From assembly GCA_016198685.1 (NCBI GenBank), contig JACQID010000004.1, forward strand, positions 185,208-249,207: DNA of 64,000 nt, written 5' to 3'. The notes beneath the pieces are model-generated. The model was not told where the DNA came from. It made no database searches and saw only the letters and a list, made by a program, of their open reading frames with translations. Shown here one piece after another: positions 11,124 to 61,843 of this stretch; position 1 is the first letter of the stretch; each line of letters begins with the position of its first letter. Source of the DNA: Candidatus Aenigmatarchaeota archaeon. GTDB lineage: Archaea; Aenigmatarchaeota; Aenigmatarchaeia; GW2011-AR5. Made by a program: the position numbers and the translations under genes.

Positions 11124-11219
11124 TGACAAAAAGACAAACTACCCATAGACAATTAACAAATTTAGCAAGAGGAAGGCAGATATTGTTTCAAAATCAATTA
11201 AGACGGAGCGGAAAAGAAA

Positions 11220-12503
11220 ATGAAACTCAAAGCCTATTCTAAATATAAGAAATCTGGGATTCAGTGGATTGGCGATATACCTGAAGGCTGGTCATTAGAA
11301 AGGTTTAAGCTTAGATTTAAAAGTAAAAAAGGAAAAATACCCGATAATCTCGATGTTACCAATGGCGAGGGTTACTTACCCTATTTAAGTATGGAATACT
11401 TAAGGGGCAAAGAAGAAAATGCTCAGTTTTCAAACGATCCTACTGCATTAAAAGTTGAAGACCATGATTTATTGTTATTATGGGACGGATCAAATGCAGG
11501 GGAATTTATTTCTGCTAAAAAAGGGATCCTATCTTCTACAATGGTGAAACTTAACATACAAAGAATGAATACTCAATATTGCAAATATTTATGTTCAGGT
11601 TTTGAACCCATGCTAAGAGATTTAACTGTTGGAATGGGAATTCCTCATGTAAATGGTGATGTTTTGGGTAATATTCAAATCCCAATTATAGGTATTGGAG
11701 AACAAAAAAAAGCAACTTCTTTTCTCGACTCCAAAACCTCACAAATCTCCAAAACAATCTCAGCCGACAAACAACTTATAGAGCTTCTCAAAGAAAAAAG
11801 AACTGCTTTAATCAATCACGTTGTAACGAAAGGCCTGAATCCTAAAGCAAAAATGAAAGATTCTGGGATTGAATGGATTGGAGAAGTGCCTGAAGGGTGG
11901 GAAGTTAAAAAAATTAAATTTATTGGAAATATTGTTTTAGGGAAAATGCTTACCGACAAAGAACATGATGGTCATATACAAAAACCATATCTACGAGCAC
12001 AAAATATTCTATGGGAGAAGGTTGATGTTTCTGATGTCAAAGAAATGTGGTTTTCATCTGGAGAGTTAAAAAGATTTAGATTGAAAAATAATGATTTACT
12101 TGTATCGGAAGGTGGGGAAGCTGGAAGAACAGCTCTATGGAAAGGAGAAATAGATGAATGTTATATTCAAAATTCGGTGCAAAAAGTAACGTTAGATGAA
12201 GGATGTATTCCAAATTATTTTCTGTATTTATTTGAGTCTTATGGTAAAAGGGGCATTTTTGATTCAGTTGTGAGTAGGGTTAGCATAGCTCATTTAACAA
12301 GAGAAAAACTAAAAGAGATAATTTGCACAGTCCCTCCAAAACAAGAACAAGCCCAAATAGCAAAATTTCTCGACAAAGCAACCTCAAAAATAGACCAAAC
12401 TATCCAGAAAATTGAGGCAAAAATAGAGCTTCTTGAGGAATTTAAAAAATCATTAATACATCATGTTGTTACAGGCAAGGTAGATGTAAGGTGTGAAATA
12501 TGA
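11220..12503 (+). CDS. hsdS: Type I restriction-modification system, specificity subunit S
   Basis: Two half-repeats (SGIQWIGDIPEGWSLERFK / SGIEWIGEVPEGWEVKKIK). Conserved helical spacers are present (LIELLKEKRTALINHVVTKG, LLEEFKKSLIHHVVTGK). Confidence 0.85.
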   Translation: MKLKAYSKYKKSGIQWIGDIPEGWSLERFKLRFKSKKGKIPDNLDVTNGEGYLPYLSMEYLRGKEENAQFSNDPTALKVEDHDLLLLWDGSNAGEFISAKKGILSSTMVKLNIQRMNTQYCKYLCSGFEPMLRDLTVGMGIPHVNGDVLGNIQIPIIGIGEQKKATSFLDSKTSQISKTISADKQLIELLKEKRTALINHVVTKGLNPKAKMKDSGIEWIGEVPEGWEVKKIKFIGNIVLGKMLTDKEHDGHIQKPYLRAQNILWEKVDVSDVKEMWFSSGELKRFRLKNNDLLVSEGGEAGRTALWKGEIDECYIQNSVQKVTLDEGCIPNYFLYLFESYGKRGIFDSVVSRVSIAHLTREKLKEIICTVPPKQEQAQIAKFLDKATSKIDQTIQKIEAKIELLEEFKKSLIHHVVTGKVDVRCEI

Positions 12504-14038: not shown

Positions 14039-14044
14039 AGAAAA

Positions 14045-16630: not shown

Positions 16631-16968
16631 AGTTGTCCAAGATTCTCAAAGACCTGAATGACGCATTCGGGACAGACTTTACAGAAGATGATAGAGTATT
16701 TTTGGGTAGGGTAAAGGATAATATGCTACAAAATGAGGATTTGCTCAATAAAATGGAGCACAACTCTAAGGAAAATGTAAAGGCAGTTTTTGACAAATAT
16801 TTCAATCAGGAAATGACAAAGCTACTAAATAGTAATTTGAAACTTTACAAAAGAATAGTAGAAAATGACAAATTGAAGACGAAGCTTAAATCAGACTTAT
16901 TTAGTTTGGTTTATTTTGAATTTAATAAAAGAAAAAAGAAAACTCTCAGAGAGGAAGAAGTAAAATAA
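16627..16968 (+). CDS. hsdR: HsdR C-terminal helical domain encoded in a separate frame (split or frameshifted hsdR)
   Basis: LSKILKDLNDAFGTDFTEDDRVF...NSKENVKAVFDKYF resembles the contiguous C-terminus of long HsdR proteins. Its frame is open from 16579 and overlaps the upstream stop (ATGA at 16627-16630). Confidence 0.6.
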   Translation: MKLSKILKDLNDAFGTDFTEDDRVFLGRVKDNMLQNEDLLNKMEHNSKENVKAVFDKYFNQEMTKLLNSNLKLYKRIVENDKLKTKLKSDLFSLVYFEFNKRKKKTLREEEVK

Positions 16969-16973
16969 TTTAG

Positions 16974-17195
16974 GTGTTTTTCATGGGCGGAAGAAGTGTA
17001 GGCGGCCGGGCGGCGAACATTCGTTTACGCCAGAGAATCGCCCACCAGTCAATGAAGGAGCTTATGGAAGAGGCGGCGGTACGGGAAAAAACGCCGCCGT
17101 CACGGGACGTTAATAAGTGCGAGGCGTGCGGGTTTAAGGCGCGGTATAAATTTATACGATGTCCTGAATGTGGGGAAGTGAGGAAGAATGGCTAA
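16974..17195 (+). CDS. small zinc-ribbon protein (73 aa, GTG start)
   Basis: The C-terminus carries CEACGF...RCPECG, two CxxC pairs. The segment is GC-rich. Confidence 0.4.
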   Translation: MFFMGGRSVGGRAANIRLRQRIAHQSMKELMEEAAVREKTPPSRDVNKCEACGFKARYKFIRCPECGEVRKNG

Positions 17196-17355
17196 AGATG
17201 ATACGATATCAGGCGCTGGCATACTCCTTGGGGTTTTGGGACTCCTATTTTTAGCAGACGCATTAGATAAGAAAAGATGTTCTCATTGTGGGAATTATAA
17301 TACTAAACAAAATACAATATGTAATTATTGCGGATGGGGCTGGACGATTTTATAG
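17188..17355 (+). CDS. small TM plus zinc-ribbon protein (55 aa)
   Basis: ATG at 17188 and TAG at 17353-17355. GAGILLGVLGLLFLA is a TM helix, followed by CSHCG...CNYCG. It overlaps both neighbouring ORFs and is below the ORF-track cutoff. Confidence 0.35.
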   Translation: MAKDDTISGAGILLGVLGLLFLADALDKKRCSHCGNYNTKQNTICNYCGWGWTIL

Positions 17356-17606
17356 GCAAAAACGCTACCCCGACAGCACGGCTGGCTTCTACATTCATAA
17401 GCATCGCTATCGTATTATTTATATTTTTCAACGCTATGCCTACGGAACTTAGAAACGGAGCGTTCTACTTTCTCCTGTTCCATTTAGCAAACCATATATA
17501 TGTCGGGTATTCAGACCTTAAAATTCACACATGTTATCGTTGTGGTGAAGAATTAAGGCCGAGAGTTAATTATAAAAAACACATCTGTAAAAAGCATGGA
17601 GCTTAA
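17328..17606 (+). CDS. small membrane protein with C-terminal Cys/His motif (92 aa)
   Basis: Two hydrophobic helices followed by CYRCGEE...HICKKHG. Confidence 0.35.
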   Translation: MRMGLDDFIGKNATPTARLASTFISIAIVLFIFFNAMPTELRNGAFYFLLFHLANHIYVGYSDLKIHTCYRCGEELRPRVNYKKHICKKHGA

Positions 17607-17821
17607 GCTGATATGTTTCTTGCGGCTGCTGGTATAAAGAAAACTAACCATGCGGCGATGCCTATCAGAAAAAGCGCTATGCCCCATGTAGTAAAAAAGT
17701 TAGACATTTCTGCGATAAAAGGCTTTGAAATTCCACCGGTGAATAAGAAAAATATACCACTAGCAATAAGTAGACCTCCTATACTCTTTGGTTGAAATAT
17801 GACTTTTAGCCAATCAGACAT
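17603..17821 (-). CDS. small membrane protein (72 aa)
   Basis: Two predicted TM helices (GGLLIASGIFFLF, WGIALFLIGIAAWLVFFI). It lies immediately downstream of the integrase on the same strand. Confidence 0.4.
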   Translation of the reverse strand: MSDWLKVIFQPKSIGGLLIASGIFFLFTGGISKPFIAEMSNFFTTWGIALFLIGIAAWLVFFIPAAARNISA

Positions 17822-17845
17822 TTGATTATTCGTCTATAAGTCTTT

Positions 17846-19042
17846 TTAAGTCTTAGCTTCACTGAACAGCCCCTCATACTTCTTCTTTTCGGCTATCTTG
17901 GTGAAACGCTTCTTGATGTGCGGGAACTCCTCGCCTAATGCGCTTAGCGTCTCAAAGAGATAGTCGTCCAGAAGGGCTTTTTTGTTCGGTTCGTCTAACG
18001 GCAGGTAGCATTTGCCGCACAGCTTTGAGGCCGGGTCATTCGGCTGCCCGCAGCGCTCGCATGGCTTTACAGAGATTACTGGTTTGCCATTGCTTCCGTT
18101 TAGGGTTATGCCGTGCTGCTTCAGTATGGCTTCGTCCATGCTTTTTCCGCTCAGGTGGGTGTAAGTGCTTATGGTATCGGATTTGCGCCAGCCGAAGAAT
18201 TCCTTCATTTGCCTGTCTGTGAATGTGCTGGCCATGAACGTGGCTCTGGCATGGCGGAAGGCATGTGGATTTACGCTCTTGTGTATATCCGCTTTTTGGG
18301 AAGCTTCTTTCAGCATCTTACGAATTAAGCCGTATGTCAGGTATCTGTCACGGCCTCTCACTCTTTCATGAACCCACAGATATGCTTCAGGGTCGTTCTT
18401 GTATGGATGGCTGTCCAGCCAGTCTTTCAGCGCCGGCGTGGAAGCTACTATGCGTATTCTTCTGTCGCCTGTTTTCCCAGAGACTCGCAGGACGGCTCCG
18501 TATTCGTCAAATGCTACGTTCTTCATTTTAAGGGGCAGAAACTCGCCTACCCTTGTGCCAGACTCGTAAAGGCAAAGAATGAAAGCCCTGTCCCTTATGG
18601 TTCTTGCGTTTATGGCTATCGCCTTTATCTCGTCTTCCGTCAAAACGTCGTCAGGCAGCAGCGTCTTGGAACTGTTCTTTATCTTAATCCATGATACGTC
18701 TTCCGTATCCTTGCCCCTGAGAAATTTGTAGTATTTCCGTAAAAAGACTTTGAAATCCCGTTTTGTCCAGTCTGCCCATCTGGTGCTGGCTGATATGTCC
18801 GCCACGAGTTGGATTATGTCACTCTTGTTAGCGTTTCGTAGTGGTTTCTTCAACATAGTGGAAAGTGTTTTCATACTGTAGAAATACTTGGTTATCCTGC
18901 CTTGTGTTATGCCCTCTGCCATCAATTGGGTATAGAAGCGTTGTGCATCCTCTTTGTCTTCCTCGTAAAGCGGGGAATCGCTTCCGAGGTATTGTTTCGC
19001 CACTTTGGCCAAGGTCTTCTCGTAATTGTGTATGTTTCCCAT
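17846..19042 (-). CDS. tyrosine recombinase / integrase with C-terminal zinc ribbon
   Basis: Catalytic pattern YESGTRVGEF (Arg), HAFRHARAT (HxxR) and ISTYTHL (Tyr). There is an extra C-terminal CERCGQPNDPASKLCGKCY. The gene is adjacent to tRNA-Tyr. Confidence 0.85.
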   Translation of the reverse strand: MGNIHNYEKTLAKVAKQYLGSDSPLYEEDKEDAQRFYTQLMAEGITQGRITKYFYSMKTLSTMLKKPLRNANKSDIIQLVADISASTRWADWTKRDFKVFLRKYYKFLRGKDTEDVSWIKIKNSSKTLLPDDVLTEDEIKAIAINARTIRDRAFILCLYESGTRVGEFLPLKMKNVAFDEYGAVLRVSGKTGDRRIRIVASTPALKDWLDSHPYKNDPEAYLWVHERVRGRDRYLTYGLIRKMLKEASQKADIHKSVNPHAFRHARATFMASTFTDRQMKEFFGWRKSDTISTYTHLSGKSMDEAILKQHGITLNGSNGKPVISVKPCERCGQPNDPASKLCGKCYLPLDEPNKKALLDDYLFETLSALGEEFPHIKKRFTKIAEKKKYEGLFSEAKT

Positions 19043-46633: not shown

Positions 46634-47134
46634 TCAGATATTATCCAGTTCCGCCATATTTTTTATGATATCACTGAAAGCAGAAGGCGGTTCCTTGATA
46701 GAAGGAAGGATATTAAAATAATACGCAAGTTCTGTGACGGCATTGGGATTCTTGGAGGGGGATAGTATTCCGAAATGGCCTTCTTCATCCAATATCGCCA
46801 GCCTTTCATCCTTGTTATTATATACAATCCTAAGGGTCATGTTCCCGTTTTCCGTGTAAATGCCGACTTCGGTTATTTCATAATTCGGCGGAAGCTGGCG
46901 CCATGCTTTGCCTATATCAGTGCCATTGTGGCGCTTATCTAAAAACAGCATATACCACGGATCCCTGTGAAGTTCATCGATATTGCCATCTGCGGGAACA
47001 TAGAGCCCGCAGGCATGCGGCACGTAATTGTGGCTTTTTGCTATACGATAAGCCGTGGGACTCATGCCGGCCTTTGCCATTTCTGTTAAAACTCGGCTTT
47101 TATTATTGTCCAAATCCTCGACCAATTTTAGCAT
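46634..47134 (-). CDS. hypothetical protein (166 aa)
   Basis: ORF with no motif recognised. Confidence 0.4.
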   Translation of the reverse strand: MLKLVEDLDNNKSRVLTEMAKAGMSPTAYRIAKSHNYVPHACGLYVPADGNIDELHRDPWYMLFLDKRHNGTDIGKAWRQLPPNYEITEVGIYTENGNMTLRIVYNNKDERLAILDEEGHFGILSPSKNPNAVTELAYYFNILPSIKEPPSAFSDIIKNMAELDNI

Positions 47135-50474: not shown

Positions 50475-53042
50475 TTATCTTTCCGGAATTAAATGAAGAA
50501 GATTCAGGCGCCTAAATTCTTGATATAACTCATTATCACTTTTTCTCAACTCGCGTCTGGTTGCATTAGTGTGGTTCATAAGAAGCCGCAAAAGTAAATC
50601 TTCCACTACAGCCTTGGGCTCATAAAGTGTCATATTCCTTGGCATTGTTATGGTGATATATTCATTTCCATCGATAGTTGTTGCAGGTAGGCTCTCTAGA
50701 ATCGTTTTCATATTTGTTCTTAAGTTAGTAAAAAGATAACGGGACACAGTATCCTGCAGGTCATCTAATCCGCTTTCGTGCTGGAAAGCGAATTGCGTGC
50801 AGATCTCATGATTTGTTTGGCCATCTATGGATGCATCGGGCTTTCTTTTGCCCCTTTTTGATTCCATCACATTTCTATCTACGTTAAATTCGAAGTATTC
50901 TTTAGGTATTTCAAGGACCGGGTCGGTATATTTTCTAGAGGTGATTACGTAGACAGAGAATTTGCTGTCCTTAGGCTCTGTAGCCATTACCTTTCCTGAC
51001 AGTTCCGGTATCACTTCAAATCCCGCAAGTTTCATTCCGGCGTATAACTTGTCTAAATCGAGGTCAAGGTAAGCCGGAAGCGCTTGTATATTGAATGCAC
51101 GTTTTCTTGATACGCGATTCTGCTCCTTTATCGACATCTCCCTTTCCCTTATTATGCGTCCGGTCATGTCCGTTCTTTCCAGTTCCGTATGGTTCAAACC
51201 CAGAGAGCACAAAACAAGATCGAACTCGTCATTTGTAAAGGGAAGTGCATGCAAATAGCCCTTGTGATATTCATTATCAGGATGGGCGCCCATGATTTTT
51301 GCCTTTTCAAAATTGGCAATATTTATGTCAAGACTTACCGTAGGTATTCCCATCGCCATTGAGAGGATGGCGGGTCCGGAGGGGGCATCAAGTATTCTTG
51401 ATATCTTCTCGCCGCTTCCTTGCAAGCCTTCAATTATTCTCTTGTATACTTGTGCAGTTTTTCCAGAGTAAGACATAGGCCAATTATGCATATAATAATC
51501 TGCAAAATCCGAGGCTGTCCTGCCGTCATTAGCATAGATCAACCTTTCGTTGGATTCAGCGCTTCTACCGGCCATCACAGTCAATATCCTTCTTACGTGC
51601 TGGGCGGGCGTATAAATCACGTCAAGTATAGGTCGTTTTGTATGAACGGGCGAATCTGACACCAGTTTGCCGTCCTCAAGCTTTACCCTTCCGCCCCTCA
51701 TGGCAATATCTATAATTCTCTTCTTATCTGACACAAGATGATTTATGCCTGCATCGATGGAGCCTCTGGGATGCATAGGGTAATTGACAACGAGTTGCGT
51801 GATGCGTACCGGCTTTTCCTGACCTCTTCTGTCTATCCTTTTTGTCATTTGATATAGCGGGCCATAACTATATGGAAGATCGAGAAGGAATTCCTGCGAT
51901 GCTGCAACCAGTGGAAGCGACTCGCCCATGGTATGCGGATTCGATATCAAGACACAATGCTCCGGGGAATTTTCAAAAAGATGCCTCACAATCTCGCGTT
52001 CGCTTTCTTTGCCCATCCGACCAGTCGGTACGCTGCCGTCTATCCTTAGCGCCTTGTGCTTCTTGTAACGTTCTTCGAGTTTCCGTGTGACACCGTTCAC
52101 AAATCTTGAAGAAAATACAACGCATTTTTCCCCATTTGCTATCGCGTTGCCTACAAGGCGGTCAAGCTCAAGGTATTTCGATGATTCTATATCGTTTAAT
52201 TTTTCGCGTAGTACCGGATCTGTTATCATGTCTGGCTCTACAAGAGACGGGTCCAGCGAAGCCTTCCTAAGTTGGTCAAGCTTTTCGGTAGGTGATATGT
52301 CTTCATAGGCAAGAACTGCAGCATAGACTGCTGCATGATCTGGATTCATTTCCACAAAGCAGGTGCTTATCTCAGGTAATTCGACATCACCTCTCCTCAG
52401 CATTTTCCTGTTCAGGACGCTTCCGAGAACAAGAGGATTTTTTTGATATGCTCTTGCCACATGCCATGGCGTTGGGTAATTTTCAGGCTCAAGCATGCTT
52501 ATGAGGTTGAACATATCGGACATGCCGTCCGGCACAGGAGTTGCGGTAAGCAGTGCAAGATATTTCGCCCTGTCCGTTAACCTTCTCATATTATACCGGT
52601 GCGTCTTGGGGTCTCCTGTATGATGCTCCTCATCAACAATAACATAGTCGGGCTTGAAGTTTTCAAGCGCCTGAGTTACTTTATCCCGCGTAGTCTTGAC
52701 GCCAAAAACGTCATGATTGACTATGATGGCATCCGAGTCCAAAACGACCCTATCAAGAGATCGTGTGCCATAGTCATTCAGAAGCGTGGTCCTTAGCCGA
52801 GGATAATTGGTGCCCAGTTGTGACTTCCAGTATTCAAGGCCAGAATTTGGCACTACAGCTAGAGTCTTAGGCATACGGCCCGTGCCTATCTCAATGAGCC
52901 TGATAGCGCCTATGGCTTGCTGTGTCTTCCCAAAGCCGCCGCCGTCTGCTATGAGTATTCTGCCTTCATCATATATCTTGAAAGAGCCGTACTCCTGCTG
53001 TATATTGGGCCTTATGACCGAGACTTCCCTGTAAGTTGTCAT
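50475..53042 (-). CDS. SNF2-family helicase fused to a class-I SAM-methyltransferase-like domain and an unknown C-terminal region (855 aa)
   Basis: Helicase motifs are GGGFGKTQQ (I), VIVDEEHH (II), LLTATPV (III) and QMTKRIDRRGQ (VI). The MTase-like part is ILDAPSGPAI / VSLDIN / FDLVLCSLGLNH. An ATGA overlap links it to the upstream gene, and AAAGGAGG lies at 53051-53058. Confidence 0.7.
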   Translation of the reverse strand: MTTYREVSVIRPNIQQEYGSFKIYDEGRILIADGGGFGKTQQAIGAIRLIEIGTGRMPKTLAVVPNSGLEYWKSQLGTNYPRLRTTLLNDYGTRSLDRVVLDSDAIIVNHDVFGVKTTRDKVTQALENFKPDYVIVDEEHHTGDPKTHRYNMRRLTDRAKYLALLTATPVPDGMSDMFNLISMLEPENYPTPWHVARAYQKNPLVLGSVLNRKMLRRGDVELPEISTCFVEMNPDHAAVYAAVLAYEDISPTEKLDQLRKASLDPSLVEPDMITDPVLREKLNDIESSKYLELDRLVGNAIANGEKCVVFSSRFVNGVTRKLEERYKKHKALRIDGSVPTGRMGKESEREIVRHLFENSPEHCVLISNPHTMGESLPLVAASQEFLLDLPYSYGPLYQMTKRIDRRGQEKPVRITQLVVNYPMHPRGSIDAGINHLVSDKKRIIDIAMRGGRVKLEDGKLVSDSPVHTKRPILDVIYTPAQHVRRILTVMAGRSAESNERLIYANDGRTASDFADYYMHNWPMSYSGKTAQVYKRIIEGLQGSGEKISRILDAPSGPAILSMAMGIPTVSLDINIANFEKAKIMGAHPDNEYHKGYLHALPFTNDEFDLVLCSLGLNHTELERTDMTGRIIREREMSIKEQNRVSRKRAFNIQALPAYLDLDLDKLYAGMKLAGFEVIPELSGKVMATEPKDSKFSVYVITSRKYTDPVLEIPKEYFEFNVDRNVMESKRGKRKPDASIDGQTNHEICTQFAFQHESGLDDLQDTVSRYLFTNLRTNMKTILESLPATTIDGNEYITITMPRNMTLYEPKAVVEDLLLRLLMNHTNATRRELRKSDNELYQEFRRLNLLHLIPER

Positions 53043-54736
53043 GCCATAGCCTCCTTTTCAGGCATTAATTTCCTGGCTTTCCTTGTGAGCGTTAAGAATC
53101 TCTGGAATTCGTCATAAAGGGTTCCGTGAAGCCATTTCAAGGGTTCGTTACCTTCTGCGATAGCTTTTTCCTTTATCAAGCCGAGCAGGGTTTCTTCATC
53201 CTCATGCGAGGGATATTCATCATTTCGGAGCAGAGACATGTAATAATCCCTTCCTATCTTGAGGAAGCCTTCGCGGAGCATCTTATCGTTGTTTATTATT
53301 GGCATAGGTATGCTCCCTATAACGTCGCCGCCAAAGCCGGACAGGTCCGGTCTTTTGAATCTGCCTATGTAAGGACCCAATGAGGGCAGATATTCATATG
53401 CCACCTCTTCGTCGACTATGCCAGGATAATAAAGGGCCAGAATCCTCGCGGCAAGCATGTCTATCATGCCACCTGCTGTGCTTCCATGGTAGAATAATGA
53501 CACAACCCTTTGCGCATCTTCATGCGTCTCGACAAACTCCCTGAAGGATGGGGCGTCGTTAATTTTAACGACGGAATTTATACCTCTGCCATTATCAAAA
53601 TTAAAGTTATGCGCTTCTGCTGGTGTCATCGGTGTTATTCCAGCTCTTAATAACCAACGTCTTGCACGAGTATTCTTAATTCCTAAGTATTTTCCAAGAT
53701 AATTCGCACTTCTGTAACCAGGATTTTGCTCAACAAGCTTCGCCAAATCCCCATCTGCAATCATTTTGACACCGGTTCTTATTTCATGAGACAATAACAA
53801 AGCTTCTTGTTGTGTCATCGGTGTTATTCCAGCTCTTAATAACATGCCTTTGGCGCCTGTAGGACTAATTCCCAAATATTTTGCAAGCATACTTTCACTC
53901 GCATATTCAGGGTTTTCTTTAACAATATCTACAAGTTCCTGATCAGTGAGCATTTTTACATCGGGCGAGAAGATAATATGTCTAGATTCAACTCTAGACA
54001 TTGGTTCTATCCCAGCTTTTCTCAAATATCTTGCCGCTGCTCCATTACCAATATTTAAGTATGTACTTAGTATGAGAGCACTTCTATACTTAGGTTCCCG
54101 CTCTACAAGTGCTACTAACTCCTGACTTGTTAAAATTTTTACATTAGAGCCATTATATTTGACTAATTTACCTTCAGACAGATTCATAGGTTGTATGTTT
54201 GCAGCGTTCAAATAGTTTCTTGCAGTGCTAGGGCTTACACCTAAATAGCCAGCTAGAATAGTGGGGCTTCTCATGGCAGGATCGTCCTCAATGAGTTCTT
54301 TTAACGCCTCCTCGCTTGGCTTATTCTTATAATGTCCTCCAAGATGCTGTACCAACTTGGCCTCGCTGATAGTCATTGTTTTTATGCCAGCAAGCAATAG
54401 ATATCTTGTTGCGGCAGCAGGACTTACACCCAAATGTTTAGATAAAATACTAGGACTTCTCATGGCAGGATCGTCCTCAATGAGTTCTTTTAACGCCTCC
54501 TCGCTTGGCTTATTCTTATAAGGTTGTTTAAAATGTTGAACCAATTTTCCTTCAGTAATATTCATTGGCTCTATGCCTGCAGATAACAAATATTCTCTAG
54601 CAGCACTTCTACTCATATTCAAATATGTTGCAAGTGAAGTGCTGCTTCTATACTCAGGATGGTTTTGTACCAGCATTCGCAACGCTTCATTACTAATTCT
54701 GGTTTTATAAGATGGCATACTTTCATCCTTAACCAA
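53039..54736 (-). CDS. protein with six tandem HTH-like repeats (about 63 aa each) plus a unique C-terminal domain of about 185 aa
   Basis: Six units show the recurring pattern ...P.YRS...L..YLG(V/I)S.....(R)..L..AGI.PM.... The ORF-track start is a TTG, and the ATG at 54718 (MPSYKTR) is more likely. Confidence 0.6.
   Translation of the reverse strand: MVKDESMPSYKTRISNEALRMLVQNHPEYRSSTSLATYLNMSRSAAREYLLSAGIEPMNITEGKLVQHFKQPYKNKPSEEALKELIEDDPAMRSPSILSKHLGVSPAAATRYLLLAGIKTMTISEAKLVQHLGGHYKNKPSEEALKELIEDDPAMRSPTILAGYLGVSPSTARNYLNAANIQPMNLSEGKLVKYNGSNVKILTSQELVALVEREPKYRSALILSTYLNIGNGAAARYLRKAGIEPMSRVESRHIIFSPDVKMLTDQELVDIVKENPEYASESMLAKYLGISPTGAKGMLLRAGITPMTQQEALLLSHEIRTGVKMIADGDLAKLVEQNPGYRSANYLGKYLGIKNTRARRWLLRAGITPMTPAEAHNFNFDNGRGINSVVKINDAPSFREFVETHEDAQRVVSLFYHGSTAGGMIDMLAARILALYYPGIVDEEVAYEYLPSLGPYIGRFKRPDLSGFGGDVIGSIPMPIINNDKMLREGFLKIGRDYYMSLLRNDEYPSHEDEETLLGLIKEKAIAEGNEPLKWLHGTLYDEFQRFLTLTRKARKLMPEKEAMA
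53623..53654. repeat. 32-bp perfect direct repeat, copy 1 (intragenic)
   Basis: GTGTCATCGGTGTTATTCCAGCTCTTAATAAC recurs at 53812..53843, an offset of 189 bp. Confidence 0.85.
53812..53843. repeat. 32-bp perfect direct repeat, copy 2 (intragenic)
   Basis: Identical to 53623..53654. Confidence 0.85.
54267..54332. repeat. 66-bp perfect direct repeat, copy 1 (intragenic)
   Basis: Identical to 54456..54521. The 189-bp offset equals one protein repeat unit. Confidence 0.9.
54456..54521. repeat. 66-bp perfect direct repeat, copy 2 (intragenic)
   Basis: Identical to 54267..54332. Confidence 0.9.
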
Positions 54737-54914
54737 TTAGGAAGGAAAGTATAAATACTTTACTATTTATAAGTAATAAATATTTAAGTTTCTAAATATA
54801 CTAACGAATGGATGTATGAGTTCGTGACTTTCTATATATTGGGAGATACAAATATAGAAAGTATATGTTCTATTTACTATATTAATCACAATAAAAATGA
54901 TATCAAAATTTTAA

Positions 54915-54987
54915 AGCCGCCTGAGGGGATCGAACCCCCGACCTGCAGTTTACAAAACTGCCGCTCTACCAGCTGAGCTAAGGCGGC
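54915..54987 (-). tRNA. tRNA-Thr(UGU): tRNA-Thr (anticodon UGU), intron-less
   Basis: Folded by hand: acceptor GCCGCCT/AGGCGGC, D-arm GCTC-AGCTGGTA-GAGC, anticodon stem GCAGT/ACTGC with loop TTTGTAA, T-arm GGGGG-TTCGATC-CCCTC, discriminator U. Confidence 0.85.
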
Positions 54988-58067: not shown

Positions 58068-59891
58068 TTGCAAGGTAATGTGATGGCTGACAAGACGCTT
58101 AACGATTTTTCATGGAAGGTGGCAGGCGAGGCTGGTCACGGTATACTCAACGCCGGTCTCTCGATGTTTGCGAAGACCTGCCTGCGTTCCGGCCTTTACG
58201 TTTATGCGACTGCCGAATATCCTTCTCTTATACGAGGAGGGCACAACAATCTTGATGTCCGTGTGTCGGACAAACCTATAGAATCACAGAACAAGCATAT
58301 AGATATGCTGGTTGCCCTTGACAAGGCATCTGTAGAGAAGCACGCAGGCAAGCTTTCTCAGGGCGGTGCAGTCATCTATGATGGAGAGAAAATAACCCTA
58401 GACAGGAGCGGGATACGGGACGACGTAAAGCTCTATTCTGTTCCTCTTTCCTTGATTGCAGAGTCTTCCGGCGGTCAGATCATGCGCAATACCGTTGCCA
58501 TAGGAGCTGCGATGGCACTGCTCAATTTCGATCTTTCGGTTCTTGAAGGCGTCTTGACGGAGTCTTTCAGGAAAAAAGGTGACGACATCATACAAGGCAA
58601 CATAAAAGCTGCCCGTGACGGCCATGCTTATGTCAAAAAGAACTTTGCCGATGATTTTGGCCACATGCTCAAGGGCCATGGCAAGCACAACAAGATGTTC
58701 CTTTCCGGTCATGATGCTCTTGCAGCAGGGGCAATAAAGGCCGGATGCAAGTTCTATGCAGCTTACCCAATGACTCCGGCATCGTCGCTCCTTGGCAGCA
58801 TGGCAGCAAGTGAAGGCAGGTATAACCTTGTAGTCAAGCAAACTGAAGATGAAATAGCCGCAATAAACATGGCCATAGGCGCAGGATATGCAGGCGTGCG
58901 CAGCATGGTAGGCACATCCGGAGGCGGTTTCTCATTGATGGTTGAAGGATTCGGTCTTGCTGCAATGACAGAAACGCCGCTTGTAATTGTGGAATCCCAA
59001 AGACCCGGCCCTGCAACAGGCATGGCAACGCATACAGGTCAGGCAGACTTAAGATTCATGCTTCATGCATCTACCGACGAATTTGAAAGAGTGATCATAG
59101 CTCCGGGAGATGTGCAACAATGTTTCTATGAGACGATAAAGGCTTTCAATCTTGCCGACAAATACCAGATGCCAATCGTGATAATGACTGACAAGTATCT
59201 TGGCGAGAGTTATTTCACTGCCGATGAATTTGAGACCAAAGACGTGAAGATAGATCGTGGTAAGATGCTTACTGATTCTGAACTTGCTGGCATGACGGAA
59301 TACAGAAGATACAAAGTCACTGAAGATGCCGTTGCGCCCCGTTCCATACCAGGACAGAAGAACGGCTGCTTTGTTGCGACGAGCTACGAGCACGATGAAG
59401 CAGGGTTTGAACGCGAAGAAGAGGAAATCAGAGTTACCATGCATAACAAGCGCTTCAGAAAATTTGCCTTGGCATCCAAGGAACTTGTCAACCCTGGACA
59501 TTTGGGAGATGCAAATGCTGATATCATGATAATCGGCTGGGGCTCGACAAAGGGTCCTATACTGGAGGCCATGAAACTGCTGAAGGCAAAAGGCATCAAA
59601 GTTGCCTATCAGCAGGTCCTTTATCTTAGCCCATTTCCTGCATCTCTTATAAAAGAAACCATAGCCAAAGCAAAGCGCGTAGTCATAATTGAAAACAACA
59701 AGATGTCCCAACTTAATAGTGTGATAAGAGAGCACTGCCTTGTGAGCGTTGATAACAAGATTTTGCGTTACGATGGCAGACCTTTCTCGCCGCAGGACAT
59801 AGAGGATGGTGTGCTGAAGATAGTGAGGAGCACTGCGCCACGCGTGTTGGAATATGCAACTTTCGGCATTGTTAATGAGGTGAAAGCATGA
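58068..59891 (+). CDS. 2-oxoacid:ferredoxin oxidoreductase, alpha subunit (fused gamma-alpha type)
   Basis: N-terminal gamma-like domain (GEAGHGILNAG...EYPSLIRGGHN) followed by the alpha/Pyr domain (YPMTPASS, GAGYAGVR). An ATGA overlap links it to the beta gene. Confidence 0.8.
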   Translation: MQGNVMADKTLNDFSWKVAGEAGHGILNAGLSMFAKTCLRSGLYVYATAEYPSLIRGGHNNLDVRVSDKPIESQNKHIDMLVALDKASVEKHAGKLSQGGAVIYDGEKITLDRSGIRDDVKLYSVPLSLIAESSGGQIMRNTVAIGAAMALLNFDLSVLEGVLTESFRKKGDDIIQGNIKAARDGHAYVKKNFADDFGHMLKGHGKHNKMFLSGHDALAAGAIKAGCKFYAAYPMTPASSLLGSMAASEGRYNLVVKQTEDEIAAINMAIGAGYAGVRSMVGTSGGGFSLMVEGFGLAAMTETPLVIVESQRPGPATGMATHTGQADLRFMLHASTDEFERVIIAPGDVQQCFYETIKAFNLADKYQMPIVIMTDKYLGESYFTADEFETKDVKIDRGKMLTDSELAGMTEYRRYKVTEDAVAPRSIPGQKNGCFVATSYEHDEAGFEREEEEIRVTMHNKRFRKFALASKELVNPGHLGDANADIMIIGWGSTKGPILEAMKLLKAKGIKVAYQQVLYLSPFPASLIKETIAKAKRVVIIENNKMSQLNSVIREHCLVSVDNKILRYDGRPFSPQDIEDGVLKIVRSTAPRVLEYATFGIVNEVKA

Positions 59892-61843
59892 AGACTACAT
59901 TGAAGGAACTAACAACAAAGGAAATGCCTTCATGGTGTCCGGCATGCGTGATGCCTGGAACGCTTATTCATACCAATCCTTCGGCAAAAAAGATAGAAGA
60001 AATAAAGGAAGGGGACAGGGTGCTCGGCAAGGACGGAAAATACCACGATGTCACCGAAATAATGATTCACATGCACAAAGGCGATGTATTCAGGATAACC
60101 GCCAAGTGCTTCGGGGAGACAGTAATAACAGGGGAGCATCCGGTTCTCATTTCAAAAAGAAAAGCCAAGCCGTACAATAATTCCGTTTTTGATCTTGAAT
60201 GGGCGGAAGCAAAGAACGTACGGGAAGGAGACTATCTCCCGTATCCGATACTCAAAGAGGTCAAGGACACTGGGGAAATAGAGCTTCCGGCAAAAAGAAA
60301 AGAGATGGATAGGAAACATATTGAGATTCCAAAAACCGTAAATATAGGAGCGGACTTTCTGAGACTGGCGGGTTATTATATCGCCGAAGGTTACTGCCAT
60401 AGCAGAGAGGCGTGCCTCACTTTTGGCAGCGCCGAGATGAAATATGCAGAAGATGTAAAGGATATAGTTCAACGATTGTTCGCATTGAAGGCGGCGATAA
60501 AGGCAAAAGGAAGCAAAATAAACGTTGAAATACGTTCTTCGCTCTTGGCAGAGTCCTTCGCGGAATGGTTCGGTCGGGGTGCGCAGAACAAGAAGATACC
60601 GCATTTTATGATGCTTCTACCAGCAGAGAAACAAAAAGAACTCATCAAAGGTATGTGGAGGGGTGACGGGTGGCTGGACAGAAAAGTCAATCGGGCAAGC
60701 TACAAGACCATATCGCCGATTCTAAAGGAACAGATTAAGCAACTCTTGTTAAGGCAGGGAATAGTGCCTACAGTGAGCATAAACAAAGCATATGATATTC
60801 ACAAGGAGTCATATTCAATAGAGGTAGTAAGCTTTGATGACATGGCCAAGTTATGCAACGCATTGGAAATGGTCTTTGAAGCGCGCCGTTCCGAGTCTCA
60901 CAAGCCTCCAATACAGAGGGATGAGAATTACGCTTATTTGCCTATAAGACGGATAACAAAGGAGTTTTACGATGGGCCTGTCCATAACATGGAAGTGGCT
61001 GAAGTAAATTCCTACGTAAGCGGCAGTGCAATACTTCACAACTGCGGAGATTTTAACATACTTTTTGCTATAAAGAACGCCCTAACAGAGCTTGATACCG
61101 AGCCTGAGAATATAGTAATTGTGTCAGGGATCGGGTGTGGTTCCAAAACCCCTCACTTCATCAAGACTTACGGATTTGAAGGTCTTCACGGCAGGGCCGC
61201 GCCCGTGGCCACGGGAATCAAATTAGCTAACAAAGGTTTGAAAGTCATAGTTGTCGGCGGAGACGGCGACGGTTATGGAATAGGTGCCGGCCATTTACTC
61301 CATACGATGAGAAGGAATCTTGACATAACTTATCTTGTTCAGAATAATGCCGTTTACGGCCTTACGAAAGGCCAGTACTCGCCTACGAGCAAGAAGGGAT
61401 TCAGGTCGCCTTCAACGCCATCGGGCAGCCTGGAAAATGAAGTTAATCCCATGTTATTTGGTCTTGCAATGGGCGCAACTTACGTTGCAAGAGGCTATGC
61501 TTATGAAGTCAAGCATTTGCAAAAACTGATAGTCGATGGCGTTCGTCATAAAGGTTTCTCCATCATAGACATATTCCAGCCCTGCTCAACATATAACAAG
61601 ATCCAGACTATAGCATGGTACAAGCAGAACCTTGTCAAGATGGAAGACATAGGCCATGATGCAAATGATTTCAATGAAGCCCTGAAAAAAGCGGCAATGA
61701 CTGAAAAGCTGCCGATTGGATTGTTCTACAAGACCGAAAAACCCACGTATGAGGATGGCATACCGCAAGTAAGTTCACTGCCTTTAGTGAAGCATGATAT
61801 AAACAATATTGATATAAAACCTTTGCTGGGCAAATTCAAGTGA
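59888..61843 (+). CDS. 2-oxoacid:ferredoxin oxidoreductase, beta (ThDP-binding) subunit, interrupted by an intein
   Basis: The exteins rejoin to ...SWCPA|CGDFNIL..., the conserved WCPxCG motif. Downstream motifs are GIGCGS, GGDGDGYGIG and NNAVYGLTKGQ. At 651 aa it is far longer than the roughly 290 aa I would expect for this subunit. Confidence 0.85.
   Translation: MKTTLKELTTKEMPSWCPACVMPGTLIHTNPSAKKIEEIKEGDRVLGKDGKYHDVTEIMIHMHKGDVFRITAKCFGETVITGEHPVLISKRKAKPYNNSVFDLEWAEAKNVREGDYLPYPILKEVKDTGEIELPAKRKEMDRKHIEIPKTVNIGADFLRLAGYYIAEGYCHSREACLTFGSAEMKYAEDVKDIVQRLFALKAAIKAKGSKINVEIRSSLLAESFAEWFGRGAQNKKIPHFMMLLPAEKQKELIKGMWRGDGWLDRKVNRASYKTISPILKEQIKQLLLRQGIVPTVSINKAYDIHKESYSIEVVSFDDMAKLCNALEMVFEARRSESHKPPIQRDENYAYLPIRRITKEFYDGPVHNMEVAEVNSYVSGSAILHNCGDFNILFAIKNALTELDTEPENIVIVSGIGCGSKTPHFIKTYGFEGLHGRAAPVATGIKLANKGLKVIVVGGDGDGYGIGAGHLLHTMRRNLDITYLVQNNAVYGLTKGQYSPTSKKGFRSPSTPSGSLENEVNPMLFGLAMGATYVARGYAYEVKHLQKLIVDGVRHKGFSIIDIFQPCSTYNKIQTIAWYKQNLVKMEDIGHDANDFNEALKKAAMTEKLPIGLFYKTEKPTYEDGIPQVSSLPLVKHDINNIDIKPLLGKFK
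59945..61042 (+). mobile_element. intein (366 aa) with LAGLIDADG homing-endonuclease domain
   Basis: It starts with Cys (CVMPGTLIHT, block A). ITGEHPVLIS is block B. The LAGLIDADG motifs are LAGYYIAEGY and LIKGMWRGDGW. The C-terminus is VHNMEV...AILHN followed by the +1 Cys (CGDF). Confidence 0.85.

What the first reader, a model, noticed from the sequence alone, without database searches (positions are those of the whole stretch)
50475..54736. Coupled two-gene operon: six-fold HTH-repeat protein plus SNF2 helicase/methyltransferase-like fusion, beside tRNA-Thr(UGU)
Two minus-strand genes overlap in an ATGA: the upstream gene stops at 53039-53041 and the downstream gene starts at 53040-53042. 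An AAAGGAGG box lies at 53051-53058, so the two genes are very likely one expression unit.

The upstream product carries six consecutive units of about 53-71 aa (residues about 7-380). Each has a helix-turn-helix-like pattern (..P.YRS...L..YLG(V/I)S.....R..L..AGI.PM). A non-repetitive domain of about 185 aa follows.

The downstream product is an SNF2-type helicase core (GGGFGKTQQ, VIVDEEHH, LLTATPV, QMTKRIDRRGQ). It is fused to a class-I SAM-methyltransferase-like segment with an atypical glycine loop (LDAPSGPA). It ends in about 200 aa that I cannot assign.

I know of no described system that pairs an HTH-repeat array with an SNF2/MTase fusion. The pair sits immediately downstream of a tRNA gene and converges on a housekeeping-type oxidoreductase gene. 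That placement fits an accessory module for defence, DNA targeting or chromatin remodelling. This is my best candidate for the undescribed system in this window.
Basis: partly seen in the sequence, partly recalled or inferred. Interest (0 to 1): 0.8.

Follow-up and report, generated by a model that had tools for sequence, protein, structure and literature searches.

The report
HTH-array adaptor plus SNF2–methyltransferase motor
Two overlapping genes in a tiny symbiotic (DPANN) archaeon encode a swappable DNA-reading subunit and an ATP-driven motor fused to a methyltransferase; they belong to a sizeable, unnamed family, so this looks like an undescribed way of directing methylation to chosen sites.

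Summary
Two minus-strand genes overlap in ATGA behind a GGAGG box. GeneA has six gap-free ~62-aa helix-turn-helix (HTH) units plus a 174-aa C-terminal domain (CTD). GeneB is an intact SNF2 ATPase fused to a class-I SAM methyltransferase (Methyltransf_11/Rrp8-like).

The pairing is not chance. In all 13 related loci a CTD-bearing repeat protein is coupled to, or fused with, the SNF2-MTase. Orders seen are A-B, B-A and B-A-A'. P0021 and P0046 are single-chain fusions.

The CTD is conserved while the HTH arrays are swapped wholesale between lineages. Against the closest relative, geneB is 85% identical, the CTD 89% and the arrays 45%. One locus carries two adaptors with near-identical CTDs and unrelated arrays.

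An exhaustive search shows a large unnamed family (355 cluster representatives at E≤1e-30), with no nuclease domain among 47 diverse members scanned. It matches no PADLOC, BREX, DISARM or Zorya system and is absent from phage and plasmid records.

Six relatives, in four arrangements, also carry an adjacent AAG/MPG-like protein lacking the catalytic glutamate. The window does not.

Best reading: a specificity-subunit-guided translocase-methyltransferase. Its substrate and biological role are unproven.

The parts
54737..54914 (-). AT-rich intergenic region between tRNA-Thr and geneA. Presumed archaeal promoter region of the operon.
   Evidence: The sequence holds several TATA-like runs. No experimental support. 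No repeat of the tRNA 3' end was found.
53039..54736 (-). geneA: targeting/adaptor subunit, 565 aa from the TTG start. The more likely start is the ATG at 54716-54718, giving 559 aa.
   Evidence: The homologue P0015 starts at the equivalent Met.
53603..54694 (-). Array of six helix-turn-helix units of 52 aa each with ~10-aa basic linkers. Units lie at nt 54539-54694, 54350-54505, 54161-54316, 53975-54130, 53792-53947 and 53603-53758.
   Evidence: Gap-free alignment at 35-69% identity. Pfam HTH_11/HTH_10/HTH_17 above cut-off. AF2 gives pLDDT 70-83 with a helix-helix-turn-helix pattern per unit. The array has pI 9.4. The most variable positions sit at the start and middle of helix 3.
54184..54561 (-). 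189-nt tandem duplication (54184-54372 / 54373-54561) corresponding to units 2 and 3. Evidence of recent unit duplication.
   Evidence: 75% nt identity; 69% aa identity.
53042..53563 (-). geneA C-terminal domain (CTD), residues 392-565. All-alpha and acidic. Presumed docking domain for the SNF2-MTase.
   Evidence: The CTD is conserved at 37-89% identity across lineages whose repeat arrays are unrelated. The CTD profile hits the N-terminal part of fused proteins P0046 (E 1.7e-17) and P0021 (E 2.7e-9), just before their SNF2 core. It is also found in the adaptors of L035, L033, L123, L128 and L129. pI is 5.05. No PDB relative was found.
53039..53058 (-). Translational coupling signals: AAAGGAGG box (53051-53058) and the ATGA stop/start overlap (53039-53042).
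   Evidence: The junction is identical in L005, and all other two-gene loci also have overlapping junctions.
50475..53042 (-). geneB: SNF2 ATPase fused to a class-I SAM methyltransferase, 855 aa.
51648..52970 (-). SNF2 motor core, residues ~25-465. Motifs: I GGGFGKT (K39), II DEEHH (D137/E138), III TATP, VI QMTKRIDRRGQ (Q398, R402, R405).
   Evidence: Pfam SNF2-rel_dom E 5.5e-15. These residues are invariant across 47 diverse relatives. The closest solved relative is Sulfolobus SSO1653 (1z63), E 2e-12.
50928..51530 (-). Class-I SAM methyltransferase domain, residues ~505-705. Motif I is LDAPSGPA at nt 51369-51392. The 'ERE..(K/R)E.NR' and 'LP' motifs follow.
   Evidence: The profile hits solved Methyltransf_11-type MTases at 1e-9, RRP8 at 1e-7, RlmA at 1.5e-3 and Bud23 at 8e-3, and no DNA MTase. 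D552 and G556 are invariant in the 19-sequence MTase alignment; D552, R634 and E640 are at least 90% conserved across 47 relatives. Most relatives have the canonical DLGSGPG motif.
50478..50927 (-). C-terminal tail. Residues 706-765 are a family-wide conserved segment ('EIC..FAF'). Residues 766-855 form a clade-specific small alpha/beta plus helical domain of unknown function.
   Evidence: Alignments. AF2 pLDDT is 65-87 for residues 770-850. No Pfam match.
54915..54987 (-). tRNA-Thr(TGT). A neighbour only, not part of the system.
   Evidence: It is not adjacent in any related locus, and there is no att-type repeat.

Best explanation
The two genes encode the two subunits of one machine: a specificity-subunit-guided, ATP-driven translocase-methyltransferase.

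Step 1 (shown). The genes form one translationally coupled expression unit.

Step 2 (shown by comparative evidence). GeneA is an adaptor.
- Its conserved acidic C-terminal domain is the interface to the SNF2-MTase.
- In some organisms the same domain is covalently fused just upstream of the SNF2 core.
- It stays conserved while the N-terminal arrays are exchanged.
- Two adaptors with near-identical docking domains can serve one motor.

Step 3 (inferred from family resemblance). The six basic helix-turn-helix units bind double-stranded DNA. Each reads a few base pairs through helix 3, so together they specify a long composite site or several sites. Homing endonucleases read long targets in a similar way, by stringing small HTH modules together.

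Step 4 (inferred from intact motifs). Once anchored, the SNF2 core hydrolyses ATP and tracks along the duplex. This would loop DNA or strip bound proteins.

Step 5 (inferred). The motor's action presents substrate to the C-terminal SAM-dependent methyltransferase. The most likely substrate is a base in DNA, and possibly a purine ring nitrogen. This is the weakest step. Two points suggest it:
- The MTase is of the Methyltransf_11/Rrp8 type, not an amino- or C5-DNA-MTase.
- In six relatives the module sits next to an AAG/MPG-fold (methylpurine-recognising) protein that has lost its catalytic glutamate. That protein would act as a reader rather than an eraser.

Biological role (inferred). This is an accessory, fast-diversifying targeting system embedded in the chromosome of DPANN archaea. 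It either marks particular DNA epigenetically or serves in genetic conflict.

Approximate confidence by step:
- Steps 1-2: 0.9
- Steps 3-4: 0.65
- DNA as substrate: 0.5
- Purine N-methylation: 0.25
For: Coupling:
- ATGA overlap plus SD box.
- Overlapping junctions in every two-gene relative.

Partnership (13 of 13 related loci):
- A-B order in L001, L003, L005, L006, L007, L033, L035 and L123.
- B-A order in L129, and B-A-A' in L128.
- Fused in L009.
- Sources.

Rosetta-stone fusions:
- P0046: CTD at residues 247-398, E 1.7e-17.
- P0021: CTD at residues 71-194, E 2.7e-9.
- Giant fused forms carry 8-14 N-terminal repeats.

Adaptor logic:
- Window versus L005 identity is 85% for geneB, 89% for the CTD (92% nt) and 45% for the arrays (58% nt). 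The arrays have 6 versus 5 units with no one-to-one orthology.
- Arrays belong to different HTH families in different lineages: HTH_11/10/17, HTH_Tnp_1/HTH_28, HNH_repeat, wHTH/Sigma70_r4 and HTH_36.
- L128 has two adaptors with a near-identical CTD and unrelated arrays.

DNA binding:
- Pfam HTH hits lie above cut-off.
- Each unit models as a tri-helical bundle.
- The array has pI 9.4 and the CTD pI 5.05.
- Variability is concentrated at the start and middle of helix 3.

Enzymes under selection:
- Walker A Lys, DExH and motif VI Gln/Arg are invariant across 47 members, and MTase residues D552, R634 and E640 are at least 90% conserved; G556 is invariant in the 19-sequence MTase alignment.
- Methyltransf_11 matches 45 of 47 members.
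- The PDB profile search finds class-I MTases at 1e-9.

MPG link:
- An MPG homologue is adjacent in L001, L003, L006, L035, L123 and L128, in four different arrangements.
- The Glu125 position is G, A or W in all six.
Against: - No direct evidence exists for DNA binding, for the A-B contact or for methyl transfer.
- The HTH assignment rests on summed weak repeat hits. The unit profile has no significant PDB match (best E 0.14). Foldseek on the low-pTM model gave nothing below E 0.5.
- The window's MTase motif I is degenerate (P and A replace the first and third glycines). Its Pfam score is just below cut-off, so this particular copy could be weakened.
- Methyltransf_11-type enzymes usually act on RNA, proteins or small molecules, not DNA.
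- The AF2 model of the MTase region was unusable (pLDDT below 50).
- The window has no MPG homologue anywhere in its 64 kb, so the purine-methylation inference is borrowed from relatives.
- The locus sample is small (about 13) and mostly DPANN. Part of the MPG adjacency could be inherited synteny.
Confidence: 0.55

Rival explanations
1. It is an anti-virus or anti-plasmid defence system of the 'methyltransferase plus SF2 motor' kind, analogous to Type I R-M, BREX or DISARM. The HTH arrays would define self or non-self sites. Methylation would either mark the host genome or poison invading DNA. Where present, the MPG-like protein would sense or process the methylated base.
For: - The logic of a specificity subunit, a motor and an MTase mirrors Type I R-M.
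- The targeting arrays diversify fast and are swapped between lineages.
- One locus has two alternative adaptors.
- Distribution looks patchy. There are 355 cluster representatives among 1.84 billion proteins, and only a handful of GTDB species genomes matched the two family-specific motifs scanned.
- Toxin-antitoxin pairs and a NERD protein lie near the L001 and L003 copies.
Against: - No nuclease or other effector domain appears in 47 of 47 members.
- No PADLOC system-level match was found.
- Neighbours are housekeeping genes in the window, L033, L034 and L035.
- GC content is host-like and there is no integrase. The real defence island in the same window is low-GC with an integrase.
- The MTase is not of a known DNA-modification class.
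- The family is absent from phage and plasmid records.
Confidence: 0.3
2. It is a chromatin or transcription factor rather than a DNA modifier. On this reading it is a RapA- or remodeller-like SNF2 recruited to specific promoters or loci by the HTH arrays. Its methyltransferase would modify a protein (a chromatin protein or RNA polymerase) or nascent RNA.
For: - The nearest non-family sequence relatives are RapA-type SNF2 proteins.
- The nearest solved relatives are SSO1653 and eukaryotic remodellers including HELLS and DDM1.
- The MTase resembles RRP8, Bud23 and RlmA RNA methyltransferases and generic Methyltransf_11 enzymes.
- The gene context is housekeeping.
Against: - A core regulator would not be expected to swap its whole DNA-reading array between close relatives, nor to be so patchily distributed.
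- The recurrent MPG/AAG-fold neighbour points to a modified DNA base.
- The RapA score is 41 bits against a cut-off of 576, and there is no RapA_C domain.
Confidence: 0.2
3. The methyltransferase domain of the window copy is a degenerate, non-catalytic SAM-binding or structural module. The pair would then act only as an HTH-guided DNA translocase or remodeller.
For: - The window's motif I is LDAPSGPA instead of DLGSGPG.
- The Pfam score of 21.1 is just under the 21.2 cut-off.
- The whole window clade (P0001-P0006) has A, P or S at the first glycine position.
Against: - The motif-I Asp and central Gly, the post-I acidic residue and the ERE/NR motif are retained in the window protein and are invariant or nearly so family-wide.
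- Many active class-I MTases tolerate non-Gly at the first and third loop positions (general knowledge, not tested here).
- The domain is 52% identical between the window protein and P0003, against about 51% for the whole proteins. It is therefore not decaying.
Confidence: 0.12
4. The two genes are unrelated neighbours that happen to overlap.
For: Short overlaps are common in compact DPANN genomes.
Against: - The pairing recurs in 13 of 13 loci across at least four archaeal lineages, in three gene orders and as fusions.
Confidence: 0.01

Closest known systems
Type I restriction-modification enzymes (HsdS specificity subunit, HsdM methyltransferase, HsdR SF2 translocase)
   Same: - A separate, rapidly diversifying and exchangeable specificity subunit docks on a conserved enzymatic core.
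- That core combines an ATP-driven dsDNA translocase with a SAM-dependent methyltransferase.
- One core can serve alternative specificity subunits.
   Different: - The specificity subunit here is an array of 5-7 small HTH modules plus an all-alpha docking domain. It is not two TRDs on a coiled coil, and there is no Methylase_S match.
- The motor is a true SNF2, and it is fused to the MTase.
- The MTase is Methyltransf_11/Rrp8-like with no N6_Mtase domain or (D/N)PP(Y/F) motif.
- There is no nuclease.
- A genuine Type I system lies elsewhere in the same window for comparison.
DISARM (DrmD SNF2 with DrmMI/MII) and BREX (BrxHI/HII helicase with PglX) defence systems
   Same: They associate an SF2/SNF2 ATPase with a DNA methyltransferase. 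The PADLOC DrmD, BrxH, DpdE and ZorD models touch the SNF2 core.
   Different: - Hits are partial and far below family cut-offs: DrmD scores 24 bits against 610.
- No DrmA, DrmB, DrmC, PglZ, BrxC, BrxA or ZorABC partner is present.
- The MTase class differs.
- The HTH-array adaptor and its CTD have no counterpart in those systems.
Eukaryotic DNMT5 (SNF2-C5-MTase fusion) and the DDM1/LSH(HELLS) remodellers needed for DNA methylation
   Same: These are SNF2 motors physically or functionally coupled to methylation of DNA. HELLS and DDM1 are among the best solved sequence matches to the motor half.
   Different: - DNMT5 carries a C5 cytosine MTase placed N-terminal of the SNF2, whereas here a Methyltransf_11-type domain follows the SNF2.
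- Similarity to HELLS and DDM1 is only generic SNF2-level (E 1e-8 to 1e-11).
- The eukaryotic proteins have no HTH-array adaptor.
Modular DNA-binding regions of homing endonucleases (NUMOD1/HNH_repeat modules, for example in I-TevI and I-HmuI)
   Same: - Several small helix-turn-helix modules are strung on flexible linkers to read a long target.
- Relatives' arrays match Pfam HNH_repeat: 29.9 and 28.4 bits against a cut-off of 26.
- The window units give weak NUMOD1 hits.
   Different: - No endonuclease domain is present.
- Arrays are longer (5-14 units) and end in a dedicated docking domain for an SNF2-MTase.
Sulfolobus SSO1653 (SsoRad54-like SNF2 core) and bacterial RapA
   Same: SSO1653 is the closest solved prokaryotic SNF2 ATPase core (1z63, E 2e-12). 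The nearest non-family database relatives are RapA-like.
   Different: - Neither carries a methyltransferase or pairs with an HTH-array protein.
- The RapA model scores 41 bits against 576, and there is no RapA_C domain.
Alkyltransferase-like proteins (ATLs): repair-enzyme homologues that lost catalysis and act as lesion sensors
   Same: They are a conceptual parallel for the module-linked AAG/MPG homologues, which keep the fold and the base-stacking Tyr but lack the general-base Glu125.
   Different: - The fold and lesion class are different.
- The parallel comes from general knowledge and applies only to relatives, because the window has no MPG gene.

Membership tests
SNF2-family ATPase | Helicase motifs I (GxGKT), II (DExH), III and VI (QxxxRxxRxGQ) in two RecA lobes with SNF2-specific insertions | tested here: met
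   GGGFGKT, DEEHH, TATP and QMTKRIDRRGQ are present. K39, D137, E138, Q398 and R402 are invariant in 47 relatives. Pfam SNF2-rel_dom scores 55.7 bits against 24.9.
SNF2-family ATPase | C-terminal RecA lobe recognised as Helicase_C | tested here: inconclusive
   The window protein scores 16.7 bits against a cut-off of 23.5. However, 46 of 47 relatives match at E≤1e-3.
Class-I (Rossmann-fold) SAM-dependent methyltransferase, Methyltransf_11 type | Motif I acidic residue plus glycine-rich loop, acidic residue at the end of strand 2, and a profile match over the seven-strand core | tested here: met
   The window copy scores 21.1 bits against 21.2. The family profile hits solved MTases at E=1e-9. 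Methyltransf_11 matches 45 of 47 relatives, best E 1.1e-14. D552 and G556 are invariant, and the post-I D/E is conserved. Catalysis itself is not testable here.
DNA amino-methyltransferases (N6-A/N4-C) and C5-cytosine methyltransferases | (D/N/S)PP(Y/F/W) catalytic motif, or PCQ/ENV motifs; Pfam N6_Mtase, MethyltransfD12 or DNA_methylase domains | tested here: not met
   No such motif occurs in the 19-sequence MTase alignment. No such Pfam family appears in 47 members. No DNA MTase appears among the PDB hits.
DISARM | DrmD equivalog score, with DrmA (DUF1998 helicase), DrmB (DUF1998) and DrmC or DrmMI/MII neighbours | tested here: not met
   NCBIfam DrmD scores 24.3 and 19.9 bits against cut-offs of 610 and 950. 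No such neighbours occur in the window or in any locus.
BREX / Zorya / Dpd | Core partners: PglZ, PglX and BrxC; ZorA, ZorB and ZorC with an Mrr nuclease on ZorD; or the DpdA-K cluster | tested here: not met
   Only partial SNF2-core PADLOC hits were found: ZorD 47.8 bits, BrxH 33 and DpdE 29. No nuclease domain is present. No partner genes are nearby.
Type I restriction-modification | HsdS with two Methylase_S TRDs, HsdM with N6_Mtase, and HsdR with HSDR_N/ResIII plus a nuclease | tested here: not met
   None of these domains occurs in geneA or geneB. They are found in the separate system at 9105-16630. The resemblance is one of logic only.
RapA/HepA | RapA equivalog score, N-terminal Tudor-like domains and a RapA_C domain | tested here: not met
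   NF003426 scores 41.4 bits against 576. PF12137 is absent from the window protein, whereas the true RapA-like hits P0007 and P0009 carry it.
Unnamed family proposed here: HTH-array adaptor plus SNF2-Methyltransf_11 fusion | (i) SNF2 core followed by a Methyltransf_11-type domain with the 'ERE..REANR' motif. (ii) A partner or N-terminal region consisting of tandem HTH-type units followed by the all-alpha CTD ('..F.(E/D)F(I/V)....A......(L)GPY(L/I)G..'). (iii) Coupling or fusion of the two. | tested here: met
   (i). (ii). (iii). The optional fourth component, a Glu125-less MPG homologue, is not met in the window.

The most novel reading that the evidence does not exclude
The family is a previously unrecognised, programmable 'writer-reader' system for a non-canonical DNA base methylation, on a purine ring nitrogen such as m1A, m3A or m7G.

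- Interchangeable HTH arrays would choose the DNA.
- The SNF2 motor would spread or expose the substrate.
- The Rrp8-like MTase would write the mark.
- A catalytically disabled AAG-fold protein would read it.

In host-dependent DPANN archaea this would serve as a new kind of epigenetic or conflict system. The modular HTH arrays could follow a decipherable recognition code.
Probability: 0.2. Interest if true: 0.92.

Novelty: new variant of a known kind. Interest (0 to 1): 0.72.

Why it matters
If the model is right, four things follow.

- It adds a fourth solution to the problem of pointing a methyltransferase-motor at chosen DNA. The known three are Type I/III R-M, BREX/DISARM and eukaryotic DNMT5/DDM1.
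- It uses a modular, swappable array of small HTH units on a standard docking domain. That is an architecture with obvious engineering appeal, because arrays might be re-targetable.
- It gives a concrete function to a sizeable family that public annotation calls only 'SNF2-related protein' or 'helicase/UbiE methylase'. That family is concentrated in DPANN archaea, whose genomes are so small that a 4.3-kb module must earn its keep.
- The recurrent partnership with an AAG-fold protein lacking its catalytic glutamate raises a testable possibility. Methylpurines, normally treated as damage, may be written and read on purpose.

Tried and rejected
- **AF2 model of geneB.** With the 6-sequence alignment the MTase region had pLDDT below 50. 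I did not use it for fold search, and both prediction slots were then spent.
- **Foldseek on the geneA model against PDB.** Nothing scored below E 0.5. Small HTH DNA-binding domains appeared only in the non-significant tail.
- **Profile-versus-PDB searches.** The CTD gave no hit and the single HTH unit gave a best E of 0.14. The CTD fold therefore remains unassigned.
- **Word-indexed homology search.** It returned only 5 and 2 relatives and at first suggested a tiny family. The exhaustive profile search corrected this.
- **First genome scan with the full-length alignment.** It used generic Walker-A and DEAH patterns and was swamped by unrelated SNF2 genes. I replaced it with MTase-specific and insertion-specific alignments. 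A 19-sequence MTase alignment was too diverse for pattern extraction.
- **Integrated-element hypothesis.** I rejected it: there is no att-like repeat of tRNA-Thr, no integrase, host-like GC, and only 10 nt between geneB and the convergent gene.
- **Phage or plasmid origin.** Only SNF2-core similarity was found. The phrog_62 match (E 6e-37) covers residues 15-465 only.
- **Candidate DNA target repeats near the locus.** None was found.
- **Fusion of MPG to any family member.** None was found among 167 proteins.
- **Literature.** Five full-text probes found no description. That is not proof that none exists.

Full report
**Observation**

The window carries two minus-strand ORFs: 53039-54736 (565 aa) and 50475-53042 (855 aa). 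They overlap in ATGA, and an AAAGGAGG box lies 7 nt upstream of the second start. tRNA-Thr(TGT) sits 178 nt upstream at 54915-54987. An F420_oxidored-family gene converges on the 3' end with 10 nt to spare.

GeneA contains six units at residues 15-66, 78-129, 141-192, 203-254, 264-315 and 327-378. Their period is 61-63 aa, and they align without a single gap over 52 residues at 35-69% identity. Units 2 and 3 are still recognisable as a 189-nt tandem duplication in the DNA. Pfam HTH_11, HTH_10 and HTH_17 all exceed their whole-protein cut-offs.

The AF2 model has mean pLDDT 66, with 70-83 inside the units. It gives each unit a helix, a short helix, a helix, a turn and a helix, followed by a linker helix, and it makes the last 174 residues all-alpha.

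GeneB has every SNF2 signature. Pfam SNF2-rel_dom scores 55.7 bits. A methyltransferase-like segment follows, and its Methyltransf_11 score (21.1) is a hair under the cut-off (21.2). The likely true start of geneA is the ATG at 54716-54718.

**Host and setting**

The window's YchF-type GTPase is 92% identical to that of a Candidatus Aenigmatarchaeota MAG. The next-best matches are Woesearchaeota, Nanoarchaeota and Micrarchaeota. The window therefore comes from a DPANN archaeon.

Both flanks of the module are housekeeping genes: M1 and M17 aminopeptidases, an MscS channel, a PCC-domain protein, 2-oxoacid:ferredoxin oxidoreductase and geranylgeranyl reductase. GC content across the module (0.44-0.47) matches the background. 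There is no integrase and no direct repeat of the tRNA 3' end.

The same window offers a contrast. A low-GC island (0.29-0.36) at 9.1-16.6 kb encodes a Type I R-M system plus a GmrSD-like enzyme, with a tyrosine integrase at 17846-19042.

**Is the pairing real?**

Yes. The word-indexed search found only five full-length relatives of geneB and two of geneA. In every recoverable context, however, a gene overlapping or abutting the SNF2-MTase gene encodes a repeat protein ending in the same C-terminal domain. This holds for L001, L003, L005, L006 and L007.

Family-specific scans added more loci:
- L033, a Nanohaloarchaea MAG.
- L035, an Aenigmarchaeota MAG on a 1.1-Mb contig.
- L123, a metagenome contig.
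- L128, a second Aenigmatarchaeota MAG.
- L129, an uncultured archaeon.

All have a CTD-bearing repeat protein coupled to the SNF2-MTase. The gene order is A-B in some, B-A in L129 and B-A-A' in L128.

The CTD profile also hits single polypeptides just upstream of their SNF2 cores: P0046 (E 1.7e-17, residues 247-398) and P0021 (E 2.7e-9, residues 71-194). L009 (Woesearchaeota) and the giant proteins P0074, P0096, P0105, P0113 and P0134 are fused forms. They carry 8-14 N-terminal repeats, a linker region, SNF2 and MTase. Order-independent linkage together with Rosetta-stone fusions is the strongest genomic evidence available for a physical partnership.

**The adaptor logic**

The CTD is conserved at 37-89% identity across lineages, but the arrays are not homologous to one another. 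They match different HTH families:
- HTH_11/HTH_10/HTH_17 in the window.
- HTH_Tnp_1/HTH_28 in L001 and L006.
- HNH_repeat in L006 and L033 (Pfam); units of the same type are read directly from the sequences of L003 (a faint precomputed HNH_repeat hit), L128 and L129.
- Winged-HTH/Sigma70_r4-like in L035.
- HTH_36 in P0134.

L006 even mixes two types in one protein. Between the window and its closest relative L005, identity is 85% for geneB, 89% for the CTD (92% at nucleotide level) and only 45% for the arrays (58% nt). The arrays have six versus five units with no one-to-one unit correspondence.

L128 encodes two adaptors whose CTDs are nearly identical. Their arrays are unrelated: 7 x ~75 aa and 7 x 57 aa. 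Within the window-type unit, the structural core is fixed (L5, P13, Y15-R-S, L21, Y24-L-G, A32, Y35-L-L, A39-G-I, P43). The most variable positions cluster at the start and middle of helix 3, the usual recognition helix. The array is basic (pI 9.4) and the CTD acidic (pI 5.05).

I read this as follows: geneA is an exchangeable specificity subunit, and the CTD is its plug.

**The enzymatic subunit**

An exhaustive profile search of 1.84 billion cluster representatives found 355 proteins at E≤1e-30. Of the best 150, 128 carry the MTase domain after the SNF2 core, and several of the remainder are short fragments.

Across 47 diverse members, SNF2-rel_dom matches 47, Helicase_C 46, Methyltransf_11 45 and the Rrp8-type Methyltransf_8 19. 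No nuclease domain appears. The Walker-A lysine, DExH, and motif VI Gln/Arg are invariant, and the MTase residues D552, R634 and E640 are at least 90% conserved. Both activities are therefore under purifying selection.

Most relatives have a canonical DLGSGPG loop. The window clade has A or P at the first glycine, and A or S at other loop positions, but keeps the Asp and the central Gly.

The MTase profile hits solved Methyltransf_11-type enzymes at E=1e-9, human RRP8 at 1e-7, RlmA at 1.5e-3 and Bud23 at 8e-3. It hits no DNA methyltransferase, and there is no (D/N)PP(Y/F) or C5 motif. The motor half is closest to Sulfolobus SSO1653 (E 2e-12) and then to eukaryotic remodellers.

Public annotation offers only 'SNF2-related protein' or 'helicase/UbiE methylase'.

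**An unexpected third partner in relatives**

A Pur_DNA_glyco (AAG/MPG) homologue lies next to the module in six loci, in four arrangements:
- Same-strand upstream of A in L001, L003 and L006.
- Overlapping the 3' end of B in L035.
- Divergent from A in L123.
- Directly upstream of B in L128.

Aligned to human AAG (E 8e-18), the motif IVETEAY becomes ITETGAY, ITETAAY, ITETWPY, IAETGAY or VETGAY. The position replaced by G, A or W is Glu125, the residue changed to Gln in entry 1EWN. From general knowledge this is the general base. A ~10-residue segment that includes the 'AAHS' stretch is also missing. The stacking tyrosine is invariant.

These proteins thus look like methylpurine binders rather than glycosylases. 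The window has no such gene anywhere in its 64 kb, so this bears on the family's chemistry and not directly on this locus.

**Known systems**

- PADLOC returns only partial SNF2-core matches to ZorD, DrmD, BrxH and DpdE, and a 22-residue HTH match for geneA.
- NCBIfam scores for RapA, DpdE and DrmD are 20-41 bits against cut-offs of 500-1200.
- PHROG phrog_62 matches residues 15-465 only.
- tblastn against phage and plasmid records, and a family-specific scan of viral contigs, find nothing beyond the SNF2 core.
- Five full-text literature probes found no description.

**Interpretation**

The best-supported model is a two-subunit, specificity-subunit-guided translocase-methyltransferase. It is analogous in logic to Type I R-M but built from different parts.

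What is shown:
- Coupling of the two genes.
- Order-independent linkage and fusion.
- A conserved plug with swapped arrays.
- Intact and conserved ATPase and MTase signatures.

What is inferred:
- DNA binding by the arrays.
- Docking through the CTD.
- ATP-driven tracking along the duplex.
- The substrate.

That the substrate is a DNA base, perhaps a purine ring nitrogen, rests only on the MTase's family resemblance and on the AAG-fold neighbour in relatives. I give it about 0.25.

The biological role is open. Fast-evolving, exchangeable targeting modules and a patchy distribution suggest conflict. The lack of any nuclease, the housekeeping context and the host-like composition argue against a classical defence island.

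**Limits**

- Both structure predictions were made from shallow alignments, and the MTase part was unusable.
- Fold and sequence searches did not place the CTD or the HTH unit next to any solved structure.
- The locus sample is small and was found by motif-limited scans.
- The taxonomic spread beyond DPANN rests on one '[bacterium]' label.

Noticed in passing
window 8301-19042: A low-GC island (GC 0.29-0.36 against about 0.45) is a genuine defence island. It holds a PD-(D/E)XK nuclease (8301-9014), Type I R-M HsdM (9105-11123), HsdS (11220-12503), a GmrSD_N+HNH Type IV-like enzyme (12500-14038) inserted between HsdS and HsdR, and HsdR (14045-16630). A tyrosine integrase follows at 17846-19042(-).
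   Followed up: partly
window 59888-61843: The 2-oxoacid:ferredoxin oxidoreductase beta subunit (TPP_enzyme_C + PFO_beta_C) is interrupted by an intein carrying a LAGLIDADG homing-endonuclease domain.
   Followed up: no
L001 8109-8582; L003 8374-8865; L006 105-593; L035 8956-9465; L123 4634-5137(-); L128 487-996: AAG/MPG-fold proteins adjacent to the module in relatives all lack the catalytic Glu125 equivalent (G, A or W instead). They also lack a ~10-aa segment that includes the AAHS stretch, but keep the stacking Tyr. They may be methylpurine readers rather than glycosylases.
   Followed up: partly
L128 3724-7216: Two consecutive adaptor genes have near-identical docking domains but unrelated repeat arrays (7 x ~75 aa and 7 x 57 aa) downstream of one SNF2-MTase gene. 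This suggests alternative specificity subunits for one motor.
   Followed up: partly
L003 8871-10001: The adaptor gene of this relative is split by an in-frame stop between repeat units (135-aa and 217-aa ORFs). It is either a pseudogene, a sequencing error or a truncated adaptor that keeps one unit plus the CTD.
   Followed up: no
L001 308-1855 and L003 6452-8017: A eukaryote-type topoisomerase IB gene (Topoisom_I_N, Topoisom_I, Topo_C_assoc) lies upstream of the MPG-A-B cluster on the opposite strand. It is directly adjacent in L003 and about 6 kb away in L001. A Metallophos phosphoesterase recurs 1.4-4 kb downstream in L001, L003 and L035.
   Followed up: no
window 54716-54736: The mechanical ORF start of geneA is a TTG. 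An ATG six codons downstream aligns with the start of the closest homologue and is the more likely initiation codon.
   Followed up: yes
window 46634-47134: A 166-aa ORF between the YchF-like GTPase and the M1 aminopeptidase has no Pfam match.
   Followed up: no
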